A stretch of DNA of 31,855 nt. Origin: a virus. Taxonomy: Duplodnaviria; Heunggongvirae; Uroviricota; Caudoviricetes. The notes under the pieces are model-generated. The model worked only from the letters and a program-made list of their open reading frames with translations, was not told where the DNA came from and searched no databases. The stretch covers positions 1 through 31,855 of IMG/VR virus record IMGVR_UViG_3300049048_000035; one strand, 5' to 3'. Below, in pieces: positions 4,103 through 18,035 of the stretch. How positions within the stretch are numbered: the stretch's first letter is position 1; each line of letters begins with the position of its first letter. The translations under genes and the position numbers were made by a program.

Positions 4103-4349
4103 ATGCTAGTTGGAGGTACGTGTGTCGGCAAGTCTTGCTTCCACTACGGCTTTGCTTAATCTTCCCCTGCTTCAGCAGCTTGCGTAGGTCGGGGTCTTTG
4201 GTAGAAGCACACCACTTCCTGTTGACGCATAGCTGGGCATCAGGGAAGGCTTCAAACAAGGCAAGCAGGATTTCCCTTCGGTATTTTCCTGGCTGCATAC
4301 GCCAGTAGGTGTCTTGCCACCTTTGCAGTTGGGAGAGGAATACAATCAT
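4101..4349 (-). CDS. Hypothetical protein
   Basis: ATGA overlap at 4346-4349 suggests start MIVFLSQ. Confidence 0.65.
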   Translation of the reverse strand: MIVFLSQLQRWQDTYWRMQPGKYRREILLALFEAFPDAQLCVNRKWCASTKDPDLRKLLKQGKIKQSRSGSKTCRHTYLQLA

Positions 4350-4555
4350 GGCAGCTTGTCCCAAAAATACGTAATGGCAAGCAGGGCACCACACAGGGCA
4401 GGTAAGAACCGAATGAGGCTCTTAGGCGGGTCTGGTCGAGGCGTCGGAACGTAGAGCATCCGATACTCATTACCGTGCATATCCCAGCAACGCTTGTTGT
4501 CCATGTCCCACTTAACGATTGTTTTGACTAGGGGAGACTTAGCGGCTCTCATCAT
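4346..4555 (-). CDS. Hypothetical protein with hydrophobic C-terminus
   Basis: Coupled ORF in minus-strand run. Confidence 0.65.
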   Translation of the reverse strand: MMRAAKSPLVKTIVKWDMDNKRCWDMHGNEYRMLYVPTPRPDPPKSLIRFLPALCGALLAITYFWDKLP

Positions 4556-4761
4556 CCACTCCGTAGCATGTCAATGAACTTGAATGCCTTGTGTGGGTCA
4601 TCGTAATGCACTAGACCAAACCAAAGTGTGCCTGCAATGTAAGCCTGAGCCTCAGCATAAGCCTCTTCATACTCCTTGACAATGCCATCCCTGTACTTCA
4701 CTTCGTTGGCTACGTCTTGGATCATTCGTCGCTTAGCTCTACGTTCGTCAGCCGTCAGCAT
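4552..4761 (-). CDS. Hypothetical protein
   Basis: Coupled ORF. Confidence 0.65.
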   Translation of the reverse strand: MLTADERRAKRRMIQDVANEVKYRDGIVKEYEEAYAEAQAYIAGTLWFGLVHYDDPHKAFKFIDMLRSG

Positions 4762-4936
4762 TCATGCTCTCCGCATACGAGATAGCCCGAAGGTCTTCCT
4801 CTAAGCTGTCAACCCTATCCAGCAGACAATCAATCTCGTCAGCAGCCTCCTGAAGCAGAGGGATGAGCGTAGACAATGGAAGGCTGTTGGTGCGTAGGCT
4901 CTCTGCGTACTTACGCAGACGTTCTTGTAGAGTCAT
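4748..4936 (-). CDS. Hypothetical protein (helical/coiled)
   Basis: Coupled ORF. Confidence 0.65.
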   Translation of the reverse strand: MTLQERLRKYAESLRTNSLPLSTLIPLLQEAADEIDCLLDRVDSLEEDLRAISYAESMNADG

Positions 4937-5109
4937 TTCTTCTTCGCCTCGAATTCTAGGTTCTGCGCCATATAGCCTAGCTGAAGCAACTTAGCCACGT
5001 ATGCCATAGCTTCATCATCAATGAAGCCATCTAGTGTGATTACCTTGTCTCCGTAAGGAATGTCAATCTTGCTACGGGCAGGGTAGGTGGTGATCTTTAC
5101 TTCTGTCAT
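4933..5109 (-). CDS. Small hypothetical protein (58 aa, MTEVKITTYP...)
   Basis: Translated by hand; ATGA overlaps at both ends fill the gap exactly. Confidence 0.7.
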   Translation of the reverse strand: MTEVKITTYPARSKIDIPYGDKVITLDGFIDDEAMAYVAKLLQLGYMAQNLEFEAKKK

Positions 5110-13155: not shown

Positions 13156-13242
13156 GGAGAGGACACCCATTAGGCAGGGTACCGGGCTGTAACCCCGTGG
13201 TCGGCTAGTTCCGTGCAGGTTCAAATCCTGCCCGCTCCACCA
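13156..13242 (+). tRNA. tRNA-Tyr(GTA)
   Basis: Loop CTGTAAC, long variable arm, TTCAAAT T-loop, CCA end. Confidence 0.9.
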
Positions 13243-13251
13243 GAACAATTT

Positions 13252-13327
13252 GCCCTTGTAGCTCAGTGGTAGAGCAATCCCCTTGTAAGGGATAGGTCGT
13301 CAGTTCAATTCTAGACCTGGGGCACCA
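13252..13327 (+). tRNA. tRNA-Thr(TGT)
   Basis: ATCCC-CTTGTAA-GGGAT, CCA end; bulged A in T stem. Confidence 0.9.
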
Positions 13328-13346
13328 GAACAAGGAGGAAGAACGT

Positions 13347-13733
13347 TTGCCGTTAGTAGGAGAAGAAAAGCGTGAGTACCAAAGACGCTGGTATGCTGCT
13401 AGACGAGAATCGTTCTTTCGTGATAAAGTTTGTGTCAGGTGCGGCTCTCGTGATAGGCTTGAGTTAGATCACGTAGACAGATCAAACAAGACCACTCACA
13501 ACATTTGGTCTTGGAGTGAAGAAAGAAGGCAAGATGAGATTGCAAAGTGTCAAGTGCTTTGCTACACTTGCCACAAAGAGAAGACAAAACTAGAATTTAC
13601 TGCGACTGAAGTTCCTCATGGAACTCCTGTAGGGTATAAGAAACGAGGGTGTAGGTGTATGCTTTGTTCTAAAGCATTTGCTGCTTATCGTAAAAACTTC
13701 CCAAGCAGGCAGTCAAAGACAATGCGAGTATGA
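13347..13733 (+). CDS. HNH endonuclease (homing type) within the tRNA array
   Basis: CVRC...LELDHVD...CQVLCYTCH plus C-terminal HGT...GCRCMLC; AAGGAGG RBS. Confidence 0.85.
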   Translation: MPLVGEEKREYQRRWYAARRESFFRDKVCVRCGSRDRLELDHVDRSNKTTHNIWSWSEERRQDEIAKCQVLCYTCHKEKTKLEFTATEVPHGTPVGYKKRGCRCMLCSKAFAAYRKNFPSRQSKTMRV

Positions 13734-13809
13734 CGTAATTGGTAGCCGTGCGGTCCTTAGAAGTCCGTGTCCTAGTGGCGTGGGGGTTCAAATCCCTCTA
13801 CTCGCACCA
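13724..13809 (+). tRNA. tRNA-Leu(TAG)
   Basis: Loop CTTAGAA, long variable arm, CCA; 5' end overlaps the HNH stop codon. Confidence 0.88.
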
Positions 13810-13815
13810 ATCAAT

Positions 13816-13890
13816 GTGAAAGTGACGGGAATCGGCATACCTACTAGGCTCAAACCCTGGTGTTTGTGGGTTCGAAGCCCACCTTTCACA
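13816..13890 (+). tRNA. tRNA-Leu(CAA), short variable loop, no encoded CCA
   Basis: CTAGG-CTCAAAC-CCTGG; GTGAAAG/CTTTCAC acceptor stem. Confidence 0.8.
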
Positions 13891-13894
13891 CAAA

Positions 13895-13971
13895 GTCACA
13901 TTAGCTCAATGGACGAGAGCAACCGGCTTCTACCCGGTAGGTTGCAAGTTCGACTCTTGCATGTGGCTCCA
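13895..13971 (+). tRNA. tRNA-Arg(TCT)
   Basis: ACCGG-CTTCTAC-CCGGT; CCA. Confidence 0.92.
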
Positions 13972-13985
13972 AAGTACGATACAAT

Positions 13986-14059
13986 CCGTTGCTGACAGAG
14001 AGGTTATGTACCCGGCTCTTACCCGGTGTAGCGAGGTTCAATTCCTCGGCGGCGGACCA
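13986..14059 (+). tRNA. tRNA-Lys(CTT)
   Basis: Loop CTCTTAC; T arm CGAGG-TTCAATT-CCTCG; CCA; atypical D arm. Confidence 0.8.
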
Positions 14060-14076
14060 GTGATGAATTTTTAGGT

Positions 14077-14149
14077 GTGGCCTTAGCTTAACCGTTAGAG
14101 CCCTAGGATGTGACCCTAGCCGGTGTGGGTTAGACTCCCACAGGCCACC
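14077..14149 (+). tRNA. tRNA-His(GTG), atypical
   Basis: CTAGG-ATGTGAC-CCTAG; C73 present; no G-1, T-loop TTAGACT, no CCA. Confidence 0.7.
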
Positions 14150-14162
14150 CCTAAGAATTTGA

Positions 14163-14237
14163 TGCCGGCTAGCTCAGTGGTAGAGCAACCGCCCGATAAG
14201 CGGTAGGTCGTTGGATCGTTCCCAACGCTGGCAACCA
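14163..14237 (+). tRNA. tRNA-Ile(GAT), atypical
   Basis: ACCGC-CCGATAA-GCGGT (C33); T-loop ATCGTTC; CCA. Confidence 0.8.
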
Positions 14238-14241
14238 AACT

Positions 14242-14316
14242 AGCCCTTTAGCTCAGAGGCAGAGCAACGCTTTTACACAGCGAAGGCCGGGGTTTCGAAA
14301 TCCTCAAGGGCTACCA
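14242..14316 (+). tRNA. tRNA-Val(TAC)
   Basis: Loop TTTACAC; CCA. Confidence 0.88.
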
Positions 14317-14324
14317 GAGACAAT

Positions 14325-14403
14325 GCGGGTAAACAAGCGCAAGGGACGCGCAGCAGCCTTCCAAGCTGAAGAACGTGGAGTTCGACTCTCCTTGCCCGCT
14401 CCA
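14325..14403 (+). tRNA. tRNA-Gly(TCC)
   Basis: Loop CTTCCAA; U73 and CCA; extended acceptor-to-D linker. Confidence 0.82.
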
Positions 14404-14411
14404 AAATTTAT

Positions 14412-14506
14412 GGATGGTCAACCCGATTGGCGACGGGGCCGGACTTGAAATCCGTGTGAGCCACTAATCCTGGCCTTGGGAGTTCGACTCTACCCACCAT
14501 CCACCA
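14412..14506 (+). tRNA. tRNA-Ser(TGA)
   Basis: Loop CTTGAAA; long variable arm; bulged A in T stem; CCA. Confidence 0.85.
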
Positions 14507-14515
14507 AAAAAGCTA

Positions 14516-14543
14516 TTGACAAGGAGAAAAGTTCGTGTATCAT
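14516..14543 (+). promoter_or_regulatory. sigma70-type promoter
   Basis: TTGACA-16 nt-TATCAT. Confidence 0.55.
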
Positions 14544-14669
14544 AAGCATCTTGAGACAGTGAAGGGCGCTAAGGCTCTTTACGACGAAGCCCACAAGGCA
14601 GCCGCTGCAAAGCGTCTTGCTGAAGTGAAAGTCAAACAGAAGCTGAAGAAGCAACAAAAAGCTTCTTGA
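14535..14669 (+). CDS. Small Lys/Ala-rich protein (44 aa)
   Basis: AAGGAG RBS, GTG start, MYHKHLETVKGAKALYDEAHKAAAAKRLAEVKVKQKLKKQQKAS. Confidence 0.55.
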   Translation: MYHKHLETVKGAKALYDEAHKAAAAKRLAEVKVKQKLKKQQKAS

Positions 14670-14693
14670 CAAACGGGGCCTGACCCGTATAAT
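14666..14693 (+). promoter_or_regulatory. sigma70-type promoter driving tRNA-Ala, the ncRNA array and the TROVE-like gene
   Basis: TTGACA-16 nt-TATAAT. Confidence 0.75.
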
Positions 14694-14708
14694 TCAGGCA
14701 AGAACAAT

Positions 14709-14783
14709 GGGCCGCTAGCTTAACTGGGAAAGCGCTGCACTTGCAATGCGGAAGATAGGGTTCGACTCCCTGCGTGTCCACCA
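14709..14783 (+). tRNA. tRNA-Ala(TGC)
   Basis: CTGCA-CTTGCAA-TGCGG; G3:U70; CCA; bulge in acceptor stem. Confidence 0.88.
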
Positions 14784-14790
14784 AAGAACA

Positions 14791-14848
14791 TAGGATGCTT
14801 CCAGCAAACAACTTACCTTTTTATTGGAAAAAGCAAAACAGCATCCTG
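14791..14848 (+). ncRNA. CAGCA-stem ncRNA copy 1 (Y-RNA-like, short form)
   Basis: TAGGATGCT pairs with AGCATCCTG; CAGCAA at position 12; internal CTTTT-TATTGGA-AAAAG hairpin. Confidence 0.7.
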
Positions 14849-14855
14849 CTAATTT

Positions 14856-14977
14856 TGGGATCATTTCAGCAACTAATACGCACAGGAACTGCGATACGTA
14901 GGTTCGACTCCTACCCACTGGCGTAATGCACGGTGGTAGCCAAGCGGTAAGGCAGCAGTAGCAAAAAGTTGATCCCG
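14856..14977 (+). ncRNA. CAGCA-stem ncRNA copy 2 with a circularly permuted tRNA domain
   Basis: TGGGATCA/TGATCCCG stem; order inside is T arm, closed acceptor stem, D arm. Confidence 0.8.
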
Positions 14978-14984
14978 TGAGTTT

Positions 14985-15050
14985 TGGGTTCGTTTCAGCA
15001 AACCTTTAAACATCAAACTTGTAATTTGAAACGTTGAAAACGCGAACCCG
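14985..15050 (+). ncRNA. CAGCA-stem ncRNA copy 3 with a Thr(TGT)-like anticodon arm
   Basis: TGGGTTCGT/GCGAACCCG stem; TCAAA-CTTGTAA-TTTGA. Confidence 0.75.
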
Positions 15051-15057
15051 TTAGTTT

Positions 15058-15189
15058 TAGGATCGTTGCAGCACACAATAATATACTCAGCCTGTTAAGC
15101 TCGTGGGCCGGGTTCGATTCCCGGTGTCTCCGTATCAGGGGAGACATGGTGTAGTGGACAGCACACGTAATGTAGAAAAAGCGATCCTG
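15058..15189 (+). ncRNA. CAGCA-stem ncRNA copy 4 with an Asn-like anticodon hairpin and a permuted tRNA domain
   Basis: TAGGATCGT/GCGATCCTG stem; AGC-CTGTTAA-GCT; T arm, TGTCTCC/GGAGACA acceptor, D arm. Confidence 0.8.
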
Positions 15190-15234: not shown

Positions 15235-16656
15235 ATGAACGCATTTGTTAAGGGTGTTGTGTCGTCGTCTAACAAGACGCGCACTGAGAACGGCATGGCT
15301 TCGTTGAAGTCGTCGTTGAACGCTAACGTTGATCTGTTTTTCGCCATTGGGGCTTCCCGTGGCAAGGATTTGACTACGGCTTTCGACCGTGCATATGCCG
15401 AAGACCCGGATATGGCTATCCGCTGCCTGTTGTGGGCGCGTGATGCTCGTGGTGGTGCTGGTGAGCGTGATATGTTCCGCAACCTGATGCAACACCTTGA
15501 GAACACTGGCCGTCAGCACCTGGTTGAGCGCATCCTGCCGCTGGTTCCTGAACTGGGCCGCTGGGATGACCTGCTGGTGTTCAAGACGGAAGCAGTGAAG
15601 AACAAGGCTATGTCTTTGATCGGTCAGGCTCTGTTCGAGCAAAATCAGCTTGCTGCTAAGTGGATGCCCCGTAAGGGCAAGATCGCTCAGGAGCTTCGCA
15701 CGTTCTTCGGTCTGACTCCGAAGCAGTACCGTAAGGGGCTGGTTGCGCTGTCTAACACTGTTGAACAGCGTATGTGTGCAAAGCAATGGGACTCCATTGA
15801 GTTTGGTAAGCTGCCGTCACTGGCTTCTGCCCGCTACCAGAAGGCTTTCCTGCGCAACGCTGCTGAAAAGTATGCGCTGTACAAGAATGCTCTGGTGAAG
15901 GGTGAAGCGAAGATCAACGCATCCGTGGCATACCCGTATGACGTGACTCGTTCACTGAATTACGGGGACGCAACTGTGGCTGACGCTCAGTGGAAGGCTC
16001 TGCCTAACTACTTGAGCAAGGATGCCAAGCTGCTGCCGATGATCGACGTGTCTAGCTCTATGGGTGTGAAGGTCGGGGACAACCCTAACCTTACTTGCAT
16101 GGAAGTAGCTATCGGTCTTGGTCTGTATGTTGCAACGAAGCAGGAAGGCCCGTTCGCGGGTATGTACCTGACGTTCCACGATCATCCGACACTTGAAGTG
16201 CTGAAGAAGGGCAACCTGAAGACTCAGTACAATCAAGTCAAGTCGTCTGCTTGGGGCGGTTCCACCAACTTTGAGGGTGCGTACATGCGTATCCTGCAAG
16301 TTGCGGTTCAGAACAACGTCAAGCCGGAAGACATGCCAGATTACATGATCGTGTTCAGCGACATGCAGTTCAATTCTGCCCAAGGCTACTACGGCCTAGC
16401 CGGCCGCAACGACACGGCTTTCACGGCTGCCAAGAAGGCTTTTGCCAACGCTGGTTACAAGCTTCCGAAGATCATCTTCTGGAACCTTGCAGCCCGTGCT
16501 GGTCAAACTCCGGTCACGTATGACCAAGATGGAACGGCTCTTGTGTCGGGCTTCAGCCCTTCGCTGATGACCTCCATCCTGTCTGCAAAGACCGTGACGC
16601 CTGAAGGGATTATGCGTGAAACGCTGATGAAGCCGCGCTATAATCTGCCGGCTTAA
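15235..16656 (+). CDS. DUF2828-type TROVE/Ro60-like helical domain plus vWA protein
   Basis: RDARGGAGER, GRWDDL, AAKWMPR, YPYD, QWKAL, MIDVSSSM (MIDAS), WGGSTNF, VFSDMQF, IFWNL, VSGFSPSL; AAGGAG RBS. Confidence 0.8.
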   Translation: MNAFVKGVVSSSNKTRTENGMASLKSSLNANVDLFFAIGASRGKDLTTAFDRAYAEDPDMAIRCLLWARDARGGAGERDMFRNLMQHLENTGRQHLVERILPLVPELGRWDDLLVFKTEAVKNKAMSLIGQALFEQNQLAAKWMPRKGKIAQELRTFFGLTPKQYRKGLVALSNTVEQRMCAKQWDSIEFGKLPSLASARYQKAFLRNAAEKYALYKNALVKGEAKINASVAYPYDVTRSLNYGDATVADAQWKALPNYLSKDAKLLPMIDVSSSMGVKVGDNPNLTCMEVAIGLGLYVATKQEGPFAGMYLTFHDHPTLEVLKKGNLKTQYNQVKSSAWGGSTNFEGAYMRILQVAVQNNVKPEDMPDYMIVFSDMQFNSAQGYYGLAGRNDTAFTAAKKAFANAGYKLPKIIFWNLAARAGQTPVTYDQDGTALVSGFSPSLMTSILSAKTVTPEGIMRETLMKPRYNLPA

Positions 16657-16695: not shown

Positions 16696-16770
16696 TGCGA
16701 GGTAGTTCAAAGGAAGAACAGGAGTCTCATAAGCTCCCCGGTGACAGTTCGAGTCTGTCCTTCGCAACCA
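16696..16770 (+). tRNA. tRNA with CAT anticodon (elongator Met or Ile2)
   Basis: GGAGT-CTCATAA-GCTCC; lacks the three G:C initiator pairs; CCA. Confidence 0.85.
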
Positions 16771-16775
16771 ACAAT

Positions 16776-16851
16776 GGCCCTATGATCTAGTGGTATATGA
16801 TGCCTCTCTGTCTAAGAGGAAGTCGGAGTTCGATTCTCCGTAGGGTCGCCA
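16776..16851 (+). tRNA. tRNA-Asp(GTC)
   Basis: CCTCT-CTGTCTA-AGAGG (U37); G73 and CCA. Confidence 0.88.
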
Positions 16852-16859
16852 GAAAGTCG

Positions 16860-16888
16860 TTGACAAAGATAAAGTCAAGCCGGATAAT
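16860..16888 (+). promoter_or_regulatory. Probable sigma70-type promoter
   Basis: TTGACA-17 nt-GATAAT. Confidence 0.55.
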
Positions 16889-16900
16889 CGTAACCGGATT

Positions 16901-16982
16901 CATTGCTCAGCCCTACCTGCACATATCGCGCGAGTGCAAGGTCGGTGGTATGCTAGGTTCGACTCCTAGGGGCTGAGCAATG
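16901..16982 (+). ncRNA. tRNA-like element with acceptor stem and T arm but no D or anticodon arm
   Basis: 13 bp CATTGCTCAGCCC/GGGCTGAGCAATG; CTAGG-TTCGACT-CCTAG. Confidence 0.55.
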
Positions 16983-17069
16983 GAAGTATGGCAGAGTGGA
17001 CGATTGCACCGCATTGCTAATGCGCAGACTCGCAAGGGTCCGAAGGTTCAAATCCTTCTACTTCCACCA
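16982..17069 (+). tRNA. tRNA-Ser(GCT)
   Basis: Loop TTGCTAA; long variable arm; CCA. Confidence 0.88.
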
Positions 17070-17075
17070 AACAAC

Positions 17076-17150
17076 ATACCGTGGGACGGCTGGTGTGGTC
17101 AGCAGGCTTTCACCCTGCGCAGATGGGATCAAAACCCATACGGTATACCA
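17076..17150 (+). tRNA. tRNA-Glu(TTC), atypical T loop
   Basis: GCAGG-CTTTCAC-CCTGC; T-loop ATCAAAA; CCA. Confidence 0.8.
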
Positions 17151-17160
17151 TAAACGAATT

Positions 17161-17225
17161 TAGGATGCTTCCAGCAAACTTTATACATTTCAAGCCATTA
17201 TTTTGAAAAAGTAAAAGCATCCTGT
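17161..17225 (+). ncRNA. CAGCA-stem ncRNA copy 5
   Basis: First 18 nt (TAGGATGCTTCCAGCAAA) and 3' AGCATCCTG identical to copy 1; internal TTTCAAG-CCATTAT-TTTGAAA hairpin. Confidence 0.72.
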
Positions 17226-17233
17226 TATACAAT

Positions 17234-17311
17234 GCCTGGGTAGCTGAGTTGGCTTTAGCGCTGGTTTGAAAGTCCAGAGTACGGTGGTTCGATCCCACCC
17301 CGCAGGCACCA
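17234..17311 (+). tRNA. tRNA-Phe(GAA)
   Basis: Loop TTGAAAG; canonical T arm; CCA; bulge in acceptor stem. Confidence 0.82.
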
Positions 17312-17431
17312 GAATGCGTTGTGGACGCACAACGAAACTTGCGTACCCGTAGGTTCCCTCCCTTAAAGAGCGAAAGCGGGTTGGATGACTACGCAAGCAC
17401 GCTACCAAGACCCGAGGGTAGCACTAACAAT

Positions 17432-17508
17432 TGACCATGAGCAAGCAAGGTGAACGCGCTCCGCTGTTAACGGAGATATGCTGGGTTCGATTCCTAGATG
17501 GTCAGCCA
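17432..17508 (+). tRNA. tRNA-Asn(GTT)
   Basis: CTCCG-CTGTTAA-CGGAG; G73 and CCA. Confidence 0.87.
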
Positions 17509-17514
17509 TATAAT

Positions 17515-17591
17515 CCGAGCATAGCTCAGTCTGGTAGAGCTACTGGTTTGGGGCCAGAGGGCCGGAGGTTCGAATCCTTCTGCTCGGACCA
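17515..17591 (+). tRNA. tRNA-Pro(TGG)
   Basis: Loop TTTGGGG; canonical D and T arms; CCA. Confidence 0.92.
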
Positions 17592-17682
17592 AAATGATGC
17601 GCTGGGTAAGTCAACCCATAAGGGAGCCCCAGTGTGAAGGGTGCAGTCCGAGGTACGGCACATTAAAAATTCCTCGGGCCGT

Positions 17683-17758
17683 GGTAGCCAATGTTCCAAG
17701 GCTGGCGAGCGGGACTCCAAATCCTGCTGGTGGAGTTCGATTCTCTAGGTTACTGCCA
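17683..17758 (+). tRNA. tRNA-Trp(CCA)
   Basis: CGGGA-CTCCAAA-TCCTG; G73 and CCA. Confidence 0.82.
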
Positions 17759-17799
17759 AATTCATTATACAACATCCTCAACTTTGTTGTATAACCTGT

Positions 17800-17874
17800 T
17801 GGGGACAAATCGACAAGGGCAGATACTAGTCTTTGAAACTAGGTGGTCAGGAGCGTTACCTGAGTCCCCTGCCA
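17800..17874 (+). tRNA. tRNA-Gln(TTG), atypical T loop
   Basis: CTAGT-CTTTGAA-ACTAG; T-loop AGCGTTA; 1:72 mismatch; CCA. Confidence 0.8.
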
Positions 17875-17881
17875 AAACAAT

Positions 17882-17957
17882 CTCGCCTTCGTACAAGGGA
17901 ACAGTACGCAACGCTACGAACGTTGAAATAGGAGTTCGAATCTCTTAGGCGGGTCCA
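17882..17957 (+). tRNA. tRNA-Arg(ACG)
   Basis: CAACG-CTACGAA-CGTTG; CCA. Confidence 0.9.
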
Positions 17958-17959
17958 AT

Positions 17960-18035
17960 AGCTCCGTGCCGGAATGGCAATCGGTACTGCCTGCAAAGCT
18001 GATATACGTGGGTTCGATTCCCACCGGAGCCTCCA
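17960..18035 (+). tRNA. tRNA-Cys(GCA)
   Basis: Loop CTGCAAA; U73 and CCA; weak anticodon stem. Confidence 0.8.

What the first reader, a model, noticed from the sequence alone, without database searches (positions are those of the whole stretch)
14888..15167. Two circularly permuted tRNA folds opened at the anticodon loop
Copy 2: ACTGC (14888), T arm GTAGG-TTCGACT-CCTAC (14898-14914), CCACTG paired with CGGTGG across a 10-nt linker, TA, D arm GCC-AAGCGGTAA-GGC, A, then GCAGT pairing back to ACTGC. Copy 4: T arm CCGGG-TTCGATT-CCCGG (15108-15124), TGTCTCC/GGAGACA acceptor closed by GTATCAGG, TG, D arm GTGT-AGTGGACA-GCAC. The 3' tRNA half precedes the 5' half, the acceptor end is covalently closed and there is no CCA, so these cannot be charged as transcribed. 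This T-before-D order is the YrlA-type architecture. The two cores share little sequence, suggesting independent capture from different tRNAs. Standard tRNA scanners would probably miss them. An alternative is that they are permuted tRNA precursors matured via a circular intermediate.
Basis: partly seen in the sequence, partly recalled or inferred. Interest (0 to 1): 0.85.

Follow-up and report, generated by a model that had tools for sequence, protein, structure and literature searches.

The report
Permuted tRNA mimics on Y-RNA handles
Two small RNA genes in a phage's tRNA cluster fold like tRNAs whose ends have been moved to the anticodon side. They belong to a widespread, apparently undescribed branch of Y RNAs that travels with a Ro60-shaped phage protein; a Ro60-like protein in the same position in phage Bas63 is reported to defeat a bacterial defence.

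Summary
Units U2 (14856-14977) and U4 (15058-15189) each contain a T arm, a loop-closed acceptor helix, U8-N9, a D arm and an anticodon-like stem, in the order T before D. ARAGORN and the Rfam tRNA model miss them as transcribed. After in-silico rotation at the acceptor loop, ARAGORN of 14 family members, including both window units, as tRNAs. Covariation is strong: 94% of cells pair in ten seed sequences, and acceptor pairing is 95% in 27 independent cores.

Most likely these are partner RNAs of the Ro60-like protein that present a tRNA elbow as an effector module. "Permuted tRNA precursor" is rejected because there is no anticodon loop. "Independent capture" cannot be decided.

This scan has already noted the same handle/DUF2828 family in at least 104 other genomes. 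I found no published description of it.

The parts
14666..14693 (+). Sigma-70-type promoter (TTGACA-16-TATAAT, 12 of 12) ahead of tRNA-Ala and the unit array
   Evidence: That it drives one precursor through to the protein gene is inferred.
14709..14779 (+). tRNA-Ala(UGC), the first gene of the inferred transcription unit
14791..14848 (+). U1: short handle-only unit (terminal stem, then UUCCAGCAA, A-rich 3' side, ends CCUG)
   Evidence: Matches Rfam Dicty_Class_I_RNA at 26.9 bits, below its gathering score of 41.5.
14856..14977 (+). U2: handle unit (stem GGGATCA/TGATCCC, motif UUUCAGCAA) enclosing permuted tRNA-like core 1
   Evidence: CM R1 scores 69 bits. Rfam YrlA scores 19.3 bits.
14888..14959 (+). 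U2 core: AC-like stem 14888-14892/14955-14959; T arm 14898-14914; closed acceptor hairpin 14915-14936 (6 bp); U8-A9; D arm 14939-14953
   Evidence: ARAGORN calls it a tRNA after rotation.
14985..15050 (+). U3: short handle-only unit (stem GGGTTCG/CGAACCC, motif UUUCAGCAA)
   Evidence: It is 97% identical in the relative L005.
15058..15189 (+). U4: handle unit (stem AGGATCG/CGATCCT, motif UUGCAGCA) enclosing permuted tRNA-like core 2
   Evidence: CM R1 scores 57.8 bits.
15093..15172 (+). U4 core: weak AC-like stem 15093-15097/15168-15172; T arm 15108-15124; closed 7-bp acceptor hairpin 15125-15146; U8-G9; D arm 15149-15164
   Evidence: In the orthologue in L005 the acceptor helix is wholly replaced yet still pairs.
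15235..16656 (+). 473-aa DUF2828+DUF7788 protein with a Ro60 fold (helical-repeat ring plus vWA with DxSxS MIDAS); the presumed protein partner
   Evidence: Pfam; PHROG 850 'RNA-binding protein'; model pLDDT 82.7; Foldseek and VIA-align top hits are Ro60; invariant D271, S273, S275
17161..17224 (+). U5: detached short handle unit between tRNA-Glu and tRNA-Phe
   Evidence: It is 97% identical in L005.

Best explanation
U2 and U4 are Y-RNA-like non-coding RNAs of the YrlA design. Each has two modules.

(1) A 'handle': a 7-9-bp terminal stem joining the 5' and 3' ends, followed on the 5' strand by UNCAGCAA and preceded on the 3' strand by an A-rich stretch. All five units of the window share it. 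It is most likely the docking site for the Ro60-fold protein encoded 45 nt downstream.

(2) A tRNA-like L-shaped module (T arm, loop-closed acceptor, D arm, anticodon-like stem) that joins the handle where a tRNA would have its anticodon loop.

Proposed sequence of events:
- The units are transcribed with tRNA-Ala and the protein mRNA from the promoter at 14666 (inferred).
- They are cut apart in the 7-nt U-rich spacers (inferred).
- They are bound through the handle by the ring protein (inferred from co-occurrence and from the Ro60-Y RNA analogy).
- They present an intact tRNA elbow, without CCA or anticodon, as an effector module. That module recruits or occupies a factor that recognises tRNA, in RNA surveillance, repair or anti-defence during infection (inferred).

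Shown here: the fold elements, their covariation, the shared handle, the Ro60 fold of the neighbouring protein, and the two-way genomic association.
For: Anatomy and covariation:
- Seed set: 94.1% paired; 17 of 21 pairs change on both sides; covariation score 0.73 against 0.25 for shuffles (0 of 500 reach it).
- 27 distinct non-seed cores, found through the handle alone: T 100%, acceptor 95%, D 97%, AC 79% paired, with 4-6 pair types at every acceptor position.
- tRNA-invariant residues are kept: U8, GG in the D loop, T-loop TTCRA.
- Rotation test: 0 of 14 called as tRNA before, 12 of 14 after.

Handle:
- 137 signature units lie on the gene's strand against 15 on the other, with peaks just upstream and downstream of the gene.
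- Consensus U-A-G-G-A-U-n-n-n-U-N-CAGCAA.

Association tested from the RNA side:
- 49 of 120 loci picked by the handle pattern hold the gene, against 0 of 118 for a reversed pattern.
- 57 of 57 handles are on the gene's strand, at a median distance of 348 nt.

Protein:

The same pairing recurs in Mycobacterium phage Lolly9 (Rfam YrlA 37.7 bits), Felix O1 and Cronobacter phage S13.

Functional leads:
- Bas63 gp130, Ro60-like and directly upstream of the tRNA genes, counters the Ppl defence (preprint 10.1101/2024.10.10.617714). Bas63 is in the same genus as Felix O1.
- One natural fusion joins the family to a 2H phosphoesterase / 2'-5' RNA ligase domain.
Against: - Nothing here shows expression, processing sites or protein binding.
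- Rfam YrlA scores are far below the gathering score (19.3 bits for U2; nothing for U4), and YrlA's GNCGAAN0-1G motif is absent.
- T and D stem sequences vary, whereas they are highly conserved in YrlA proper. Any effector need not be the same one.
- The protein resembles Ro60 only at fold level. There is no Pfam TROVE hit, and the profile against PDB gives only E 0.06 over 44 vWA residues.
- U4's anticodon-like stem is weak (two G-U and three A-U pairs). Folding energies of U2 and U4 are unremarkable (z about -1.4).
- The covariation alignments were selected by, or fitted to, the structure. Controls reduce this bias but do not remove it.
Confidence: 0.72

Rival explanations
1. Protein-independent tRNA decoys. 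The closed, anticodon-less tRNA mimics act alone as sponges or decoys for host factors that recognise the tRNA body, such as tRNA-targeting defence nucleases or modification and processing enzymes. On this reading the handle only stabilises or processes the RNA.
For: The tRNA elbow is intact, and the molecule can be neither charged nor decode. The setting is a 22-tRNA phage array, where tRNA-directed host defences are the usual rationale (established knowledge). U5 and many units in other phages lie away from the protein gene.
Against: The handle is the most conserved part. It is shared by units with no tRNA-like content (U1, U3, U5 and the 150-200-nt modules). That fits a common binding partner better than a stabiliser. 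Handle and Ro60-fold gene co-occur tightly (49 of 120 against 0 of 118; 57 of 57 on the same strand).
Confidence: 0.12
2. Processing punctuation. The tRNA-like folds serve only as RNase P/RNase Z-type cleavage signals that cut the polycistronic precursor and release the downstream mRNA and neighbouring RNAs.
For: The units sit between tRNA-Ala and the mRNA in one inferred transcript. U4 has a 7-bp acceptor, the length that makes M. smegmatis YrlA an RNase P substrate (PMC4201824). In a minority of family members the closing loop begins NCCA (4 of 14; 1 of 28).
Against: Three of the five units have no tRNA-like part yet keep the handle. The acceptor is closed by short loops (tetraloops are common) and lacks CCA in most members. 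The units are conserved as discrete stem-closed modules both upstream and downstream of the gene, and far from it.
Confidence: 0.1
3. True circularly permuted tRNA genes. They would mature, through a circular or re-ligated intermediate, into decoding tRNAs.
For: The 3' half precedes the 5' half, and rotation yields ARAGORN tRNA calls.
Against: After rotation the anticodon position holds a 43-45-nt handle that ARAGORN must treat as an intron. The reported 'anticodon' CAG is simply part of the CAGCAA motif. There is no 7-nt anticodon loop. Natural unpermuted versions in phage S13 also carry the handle hairpin in place of the anticodon loop. The same handle encloses non-tRNA interiors. By the scanners run here, the phage carries 22 tRNAs or tRNA-like genes.
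Confidence: 0.02
4. Decayed junctions of tandem tRNA genes (the 3' half of one pseudogene plus the 5' half of the next), with no function.
For: A covariance model of the permuted core also scores real tRNA-tRNA junctions, at 17-43 bits. Chen et al. gave the same warning.
Against: True junctions differ. Their acceptor strands pair at 75% against 95%, and 38 of 74 carry NCCA against 1 of 28. U2 and U4 score 69 and 58 bits, their acceptor strands are mutually complementary, and orthologues keep pairing through complete sequence replacement.
Confidence: 0.02

Closest known systems
YrlA-type bacterial and phage Y RNAs bound by Ro60/Rsr (Rfam RF02553; Chen et al. 2014, PMC4201824; structure in Wang et al. 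2018, bioRxiv 10.1101/312249)
   Same: Modular design: a terminal stem forms the protein-binding module, and a tRNA-like effector module follows in the order T arm, loop-closed acceptor, D arm. tRNA tertiary-contact residues are kept and there is no free CCA. The RNA is encoded within a few hundred nt of, and on the same strand as, a Ro60-fold gene. It is accompanied by shorter YrlB-like units and sits next to tRNA genes.
   Different: - The conserved motif after the 5' stem strand is UNCAGCAA, not GNCGAAN0-1G.
- Rfam scores are 19-39 bits against a gathering score of 69.
- T and D stem sequences vary instead of being highly conserved.
- The partner protein is Pfam DUF2828+DUF7788, not TROVE.
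- Up to five units occur per locus here.
- The same handle also carries non-tRNA interiors and occurs in an unpermuted topology (S13).
Thermus phage phiLo Ro60 with Yrl1/Yrl2 (PMC12135203; PDB 9KOP, 9L5Y)
   Different: Identity is 17-18%. As described, Yrl1/Yrl2 are stem-bulge-stem RNAs with a CGAA motif and no tRNA-like module. Binding to PNPase was shown there and is untested here.
Bas63 (Escherichia phage JohannRWettstein) gp130, a counter of the Ppl defence (preprint 10.1101/2024.10.10.617714)
   Same: A Ro60-like protein directly upstream of a phage tRNA block. Bas63 is in the same genus as Felix O1, whose homolog is 39% identical to the window's protein.
   Different: That gp130 is the orthologue is inferred from position and genus; I did not align it. 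The preprint only guesses that some annotated tRNAs may be Y RNAs, and it does not describe the handle or the permuted cores.
Circularly permuted tRNA genes of red and green algae, and two-piece (permuted) tmRNA
   Same: At gene level the 3' acceptor/T half comes before the 5' acceptor/D half.
   Different: Those mature into molecules with an open, chargeable acceptor, and permuted tRNAs also restore an anticodon loop. Here the acceptor is closed, there is no anticodon loop and no tag reading frame was found. ARAGORN finds no tmRNA, and RF04321 scores 14.6 bits against 47. The comparison with algal permuted tRNAs rests on my own knowledge.
Dictyostelid Class I RNAs (Rfam RF01414; Kjellin et al. 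2021, PMC7919456)
   Same: This applies to the short units (U1, U3, U5), not to the tRNA-like cores. Both have a 5' G, a 6-9-bp terminal stem with covariation, the motif (U)UACAGCAA right after the 5' strand, a variable A/U-rich interior, an end in CUG(U), and a length of 42-68 nt. The Rfam model aligns full-length to six phage units at 24.8-31.5 bits.
   Different: All scores are below the gathering score of 41.5. Class I RNAs are reported only in Dictyostelia, and the one protein shown to bind them directly there is the RRM protein Rnp1A. I could not establish a Dictyostelium DUF2828 partner.

Membership tests
YrlA (Rfam RF02553; Chen et al. 2014) | Effector module ordered T arm, loop-closed acceptor-like stem, D arm, joined to a terminal stem through an anticodon-like stem | tested here: met
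.
YrlA (Rfam RF02553; Chen et al. 2014) | tRNA-invariant residues for the elbow and core (U8, G18-G19, T-loop UUCRA) | tested here: met
   U2 has TA, D-loop AAGCGGTAA and T-loop TTCGACT. U4 has TG, D-loop AGTGGACA and T-loop TTCGATT.
YrlA (Rfam RF02553; Chen et al. 2014) | GNCGAAN0-1G motif near the 5' end (the presumed Ro60 contact) | tested here: not met
   The units carry UNCAGCAA instead. The published motif is quoted.
YrlA (Rfam RF02553; Chen et al. 2014) | Reaches the Rfam gathering score (69 bits) | tested here: not met
   U2 scores 19.3 bits (E 0.37) and U4 is not reported. Relatives score 37.7 (Lolly9) and 39.1 (L055).
YrlA (Rfam RF02553; Chen et al. 2014) | Encoded within about 4 kb of, and on the same strand as, a Ro60 (TROVE) orthologue | tested here: inconclusive
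   U4 ends 45 nt before a gene on the same strand. Its product has a Ro60 fold but is Pfam DUF2828+DUF7788 with no TROVE hit.
YrlA (Rfam RF02553; Chen et al. 2014) | Bound by Ro60/Rsr; modified by TruB and DusA | not testable with these tools
   Needs immunoprecipitation or EMSA, and modification mapping.
Ro60 / TROVE proteins (for the neighbouring gene) | Helical-repeat ring followed by a vWA domain with a MIDAS motif | tested here: met
Ro60 / TROVE proteins (for the neighbouring gene) | Sequence-level membership (Pfam TROVE, or a significant profile match to solved Ro60) | tested here: not met
   Pfam gives only DUF2828 and DUF7788. The profile against PDB gives E 0.063 over 44 residues of phiLo Ro60.
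Circularly permuted tRNA genes | The 3' half lies upstream of the 5' half in the gene | tested here: met
Circularly permuted tRNA genes | Joining the transcript ends restores a 7-nt anticodon loop and a decoding tRNA | tested here: not met
   Rotation leaves a 43-45-nt handle at the anticodon position, and the 'anticodon' ARAGORN reports is part of CAGCAA.
Two-piece (permuted) tmRNA | Recognised by tmRNA models; has a tag reading frame | tested here: not met
   ARAGORN finds no tmRNA. RF04321 scores 14.6 bits against 47. A tag frame was not looked for separately.
Dictyostelid Class I RNA (RF01414), short units only | Reaches the Rfam gathering score (41.5 bits) | tested here: not met
   U1 scores 26.9 bits. 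Five units in other phages score 24.8-31.5 bits, all full-length matches.

The most novel reading that the evidence does not exclude
The stem-plus-UNCAGCAA handle and the DUF2828-type Ro60-fold protein form an ancient RNA-protein particle that spans viruses, prokaryotes and eukaryotes. On this reading the orphan 'Class I' RNAs of dictyostelid amoebae are its eukaryotic branch, and a eukaryotic DUF2828 protein is their missing partner. One candidate to check is DDB_G0281243, the uncharacterised protein pulled down with Class I RNA DdR-21. The phage units with tRNA-like cores would then be one cargo type on a universal docking handle.
Probability: 0.07. Interest if true: 0.9.

Novelty: new variant of a known kind. 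Interest (0 to 1): 0.6.

Why it matters
Ro60 and its Y RNAs are a conserved RNA-surveillance particle and a human autoantigen. What the tRNA-like module of bacterial Y RNAs binds is still unknown. This locus belongs to a very large Ro60-fold family (7,284 proteins pass among the 8,000 candidates scored; 710 phage records) that Pfam files as two domains of unknown function. Its partner RNAs use a different handle and go unannotated, even in classic phages such as Felix O1. In the Felix O1-like phage Bas63, a Ro60-like protein in the same genomic position is reported to defeat the Ppl defence system, so the RNAs are likely part of a phage counter-defence or tRNA-protection device. That gives a genetically tractable system for asking what a tRNA-mimicking Y RNA recruits. 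It also shows that phage tRNA arrays hide non-decoding tRNA mimics that standard scanners miss, or call as over-long tRNAs.

Tried and rejected
- Chen et al. 2014 supplementary phage table: not held. I could not tell whether cluster-L mycobacteriophages such as Lolly9 were among their 22 phages.
- Avesson et al. 2011 (the Class I pull-down paper): not held.
- Whether DDB_G0281243 or any Dictyostelium protein is DUF2828-type: the only paper holding the identifier is the preprint, organism names are masked in afdb_clusters, and the 'longer' protein search gave EukProt transcripts but no Dictyostelium names.
- Donor tRNA for U2 or U4 among the phage's own 22 tRNAs: none stands out. The best summed scores are 24 and 20, within a background of 14.8 +/- 3.5 with a maximum of 29.
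- Sequence-level link of the protein to solved structures: phmmer found nothing, and the profile gave only marginal vWA hits.
- Near-identical phage genomes: megablast found only the tRNA-Ala segment, in KVP40-like Vibrio phages.
- RNAfold z-scores of single units are weak (-1.4 to -2.9), so thermodynamics alone does not separate them from background.
- The CM R1 picks up many tandem-tRNA junctions. These were separated out by handle context and set aside.
- Considered and rejected: permuted tRNA genes, permuted tmRNA, and decayed tRNA junctions (see the rival explanations).

Full report
**What is there.** The window comes from a complete 95,855-bp viral record. It holds a dense tRNA array on the + strand (13156-14780 and 16696-18035), followed by the large terminase gene. 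Between the two tRNA blocks lie four tandem units separated by 7-nt spacers, and a fifth lies between tRNA-Glu and tRNA-Phe: U1 14791-14848, U2 14856-14977, U3 14985-15050, U4 15058-15189 and U5 17161-17224. Each unit is closed by a 7-9-bp stem that joins its ends. On the 5' side the stem is followed by UU(C/U/G)CAGCA(A), and on the 3' side it is preceded by an A-rich stretch. The finding concerns the interiors of U2 and U4.

**Check of the observation.** In 5'-to-3' order both interiors read: 3' strand of an anticodon-like stem, variable region, T arm with loop TTCGAYT, acceptor 3' strand, a closing loop of 8 nt (10 unpaired in U2 with its 6-bp helix), acceptor 5' strand, U8-N9, D arm with GG in its loop, N26, and the 5' strand of the anticodon-like stem. 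ARAGORN and the Rfam tRNA model do not report them. When 14 such units from different phages are rotated in silico at the acceptor loop, ARAGORN as tRNAs, both window units included. It calls none as transcribed. In each case it has to treat the handle as a 20-45-nt 'intron' at the anticodon position, and the 'anticodons' it reports are artefacts; CAG, for example, comes from CAGCAA.

**More than chance.**
- A parser that demands all four helices passes 11 of 60 long handle units. It passes a mean of 0.01 after full shuffling, 0.26 when the T arm is kept and the flanks shuffled, and 0 for reverse complements.
- On ten cores, 94.1% of cells pair, against about 41% when the partners are slid and 68% when shuffled. 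Seventeen of 21 pairs change on both sides, and the covariation score is 0.73 against 0.25 (0 of 500 shuffles reach it).
- Those ten were chosen for pairing, so I built a covariance model (R1) and applied it to loci selected only by the 14-nt handle pattern. The 28 hits (27 distinct sequences) that lie inside handle units pair at T 100%, acceptor 95%, D 97% and AC 79%, with four to six pair types at every acceptor position.
- The 74 hits outside handle units are mostly junctions between tandem tRNAs. They pair at only 75% in the 'acceptor', and 38 carry NCCA there, against 1 of 28 inside units.
- In the closest relative (protein 86% identical, L005), orthologous U4 keeps its handle and D arm, but its acceptor helix is completely replaced and still pairs at 7 of 7. 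In U2 the D stem changes from GCC/GGC to GCTC/GAGC.

**The neighbouring protein.** The gene 45 nt downstream of U4 (15235-16656) encodes a 473-aa protein. Pfam splits it into DUF2828 and DUF7788 with no TROVE hit. PHROGs calls the family 'RNA-binding protein'. An AlphaFold model (pLDDT 82.7) matches Ro60 structures over both domains:

**RNA and protein travel together.**
- Starting from the protein, across 80 IMG/VR loci and several GenBank phages, units with the handle signature number 137 on the gene's strand and 15 on the other. They peak just upstream and just downstream of the gene.
- Starting from the RNA, 49 of 120 loci chosen by the handle pattern alone contain the gene in the stretch fetched, against 0 of 118 for the reversed pattern. 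Of the pattern matches, 83 of 131 are stem-closed against 3 of 118. All 57 handles in gene-bearing loci share the gene's strand, at a median distance of 348 nt.
- The pairing is present in Mycobacterium phage Lolly9, which has three units; the middle one has a permuted core that Rfam YrlA scores at 37.7 bits.
- It is present in Salmonella phage Felix O1, which has unannotated units in two gaps of its tRNA array, one with a permuted core.
- It is present in Cronobacter phage S13. S13 also has two unpermuted versions, annotated as 121- and 113-nt 'tRNAs'. Their acceptor is open and ends in CCA, and the same handle, closed by a small loop, replaces the anticodon loop. So the handle is a self-contained module that joins tRNA-like bodies at the anticodon position in either topology.
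- The same handle also encloses short interiors (42-68 nt) and large non-tRNA modules of 150-200 nt.

**How it most likely works.**
- Shown: the fold elements and their covariation, the shared handle, the Ro60 fold of the neighbour, and the two-way association.
- Inferred: transcription from the perfect promoter at 14666-14693 as one precursor with tRNA-Ala and the protein mRNA; cleavage in the U-rich spacers; docking of the handle on the ring protein, as Y RNA stems dock on Ro60; and presentation of a tRNA elbow without CCA or anticodon as an effector module that recruits or occupies a tRNA-recognising factor.
- Two leads point to RNA repair or counter-defence: the Bas63 phenotype, and one natural fusion of the family to a 2H phosphoesterase / 2'-5' RNA ligase domain (P0123).
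- U4's 7-bp acceptor could make it an RNase P substrate, like M. smegmatis YrlA. U2's 6-bp helix probably stays closed. This is untested.

**What remains open.**
- 'Independent capture from different tRNAs' cannot be decided. U2 and U4 are as unlike as unrelated tRNAs, but no donor stands out.
- The resemblance of the short units to dictyostelid Class I RNAs is real at the level of layout and motif. Six full-length matches score 24.8-31.5 bits, and the published Class I features are. But all are below the gathering score, and no Dictyostelium partner was established.
- No expression data could be obtained.

Noticed in passing
window 14328-14397 and 14412-14502: ARAGORN misses two tRNA-like genes. 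One scores 22.6 bits on the Rfam tRNA model, with anticodon loop CUUCCAA (UCC, Gly?). The other has a long variable arm and scores 44.6 bits on the tRNA-Sec model, with anticodon UGA, so it is probably tRNA-Ser(UGA).
   Followed up: partly
L001 (Cronobacter phage S13, KC954775.1) 4371-4491 and 4501-4613: Two features annotated as 121- and 113-nt tRNAs are unpermuted tRNA bodies with an open acceptor and CCA. A hairpin carrying the same handle (A-rich strand, stem, small loop, stem, UAUUCAGCA) replaces the anticodon loop. This is the circular permutation of the window's U2/U4 topology.
   Followed up: partly
L003 (Salmonella phage Felix O1, NC_005282.1) 4216-4282 and 4924-5048: Unannotated handle units sit in two gaps of the Felix O1 tRNA array. 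The second encloses a permuted tRNA-like core with acceptor ACTCGGC/GTCGAGT closed by AGGT.
   Followed up: partly
window 14791-14848, and short units in L010, L026, L043, L045 and L055: Short handle-only units match the Rfam Dictyostelium Class I RNA model over its full length at 24.8-31.5 bits (gathering score 41.5). They share its layout: 5' G, short covarying stem, (U)UACAGCAA, variable interior, CUG end.
   Followed up: partly
e.g. L010 3903-4064, L013 2026-2190, L022 4071-4256: Many loci carry 150-200-nt units with the same handle but large, conserved interiors that are not tRNA-like. They have recurring CTGGAGC...TTGAAGG and GTTTCGATATT segments. These may be further cargo or effector modules.
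   Followed up: no
P0123 (1,045 aa, from a 99-kb JGI contig): A natural fusion: an N-terminal 2'-5' RNA ligase / 2H phosphoesterase domain (PF13563, residues 92-233, 80 bits) followed by DUF2828 and DUF7788. It links the Ro60-fold family to RNA-end healing.
   Followed up: partly
closing loops of cores in L049, L054 (two) and L001: In 4 of 14 permuted cores the acceptor-closing loop begins NCCA (ACCA or GCCA). After cleavage these would have a ready-made 3' end. This is rare in the larger set (1 of 28).
   Followed up: partly
window 14535-14669: A 44-aa lysine- and alanine-rich ORF lies between tRNA genes, with a near-consensus promoter of its own at 14516-14543 (11 of 12). It has no Pfam hit.
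   Followed up: no
window 14702-14785: The tRNA-Ala gene is 92-94% identical to a tRNA (annotated as tRNA-Ala, or as a pseudo-tRNA) of KVP40-like Vibrio phages. This is the only megablast match of the region to GenBank phages.
   Followed up: no
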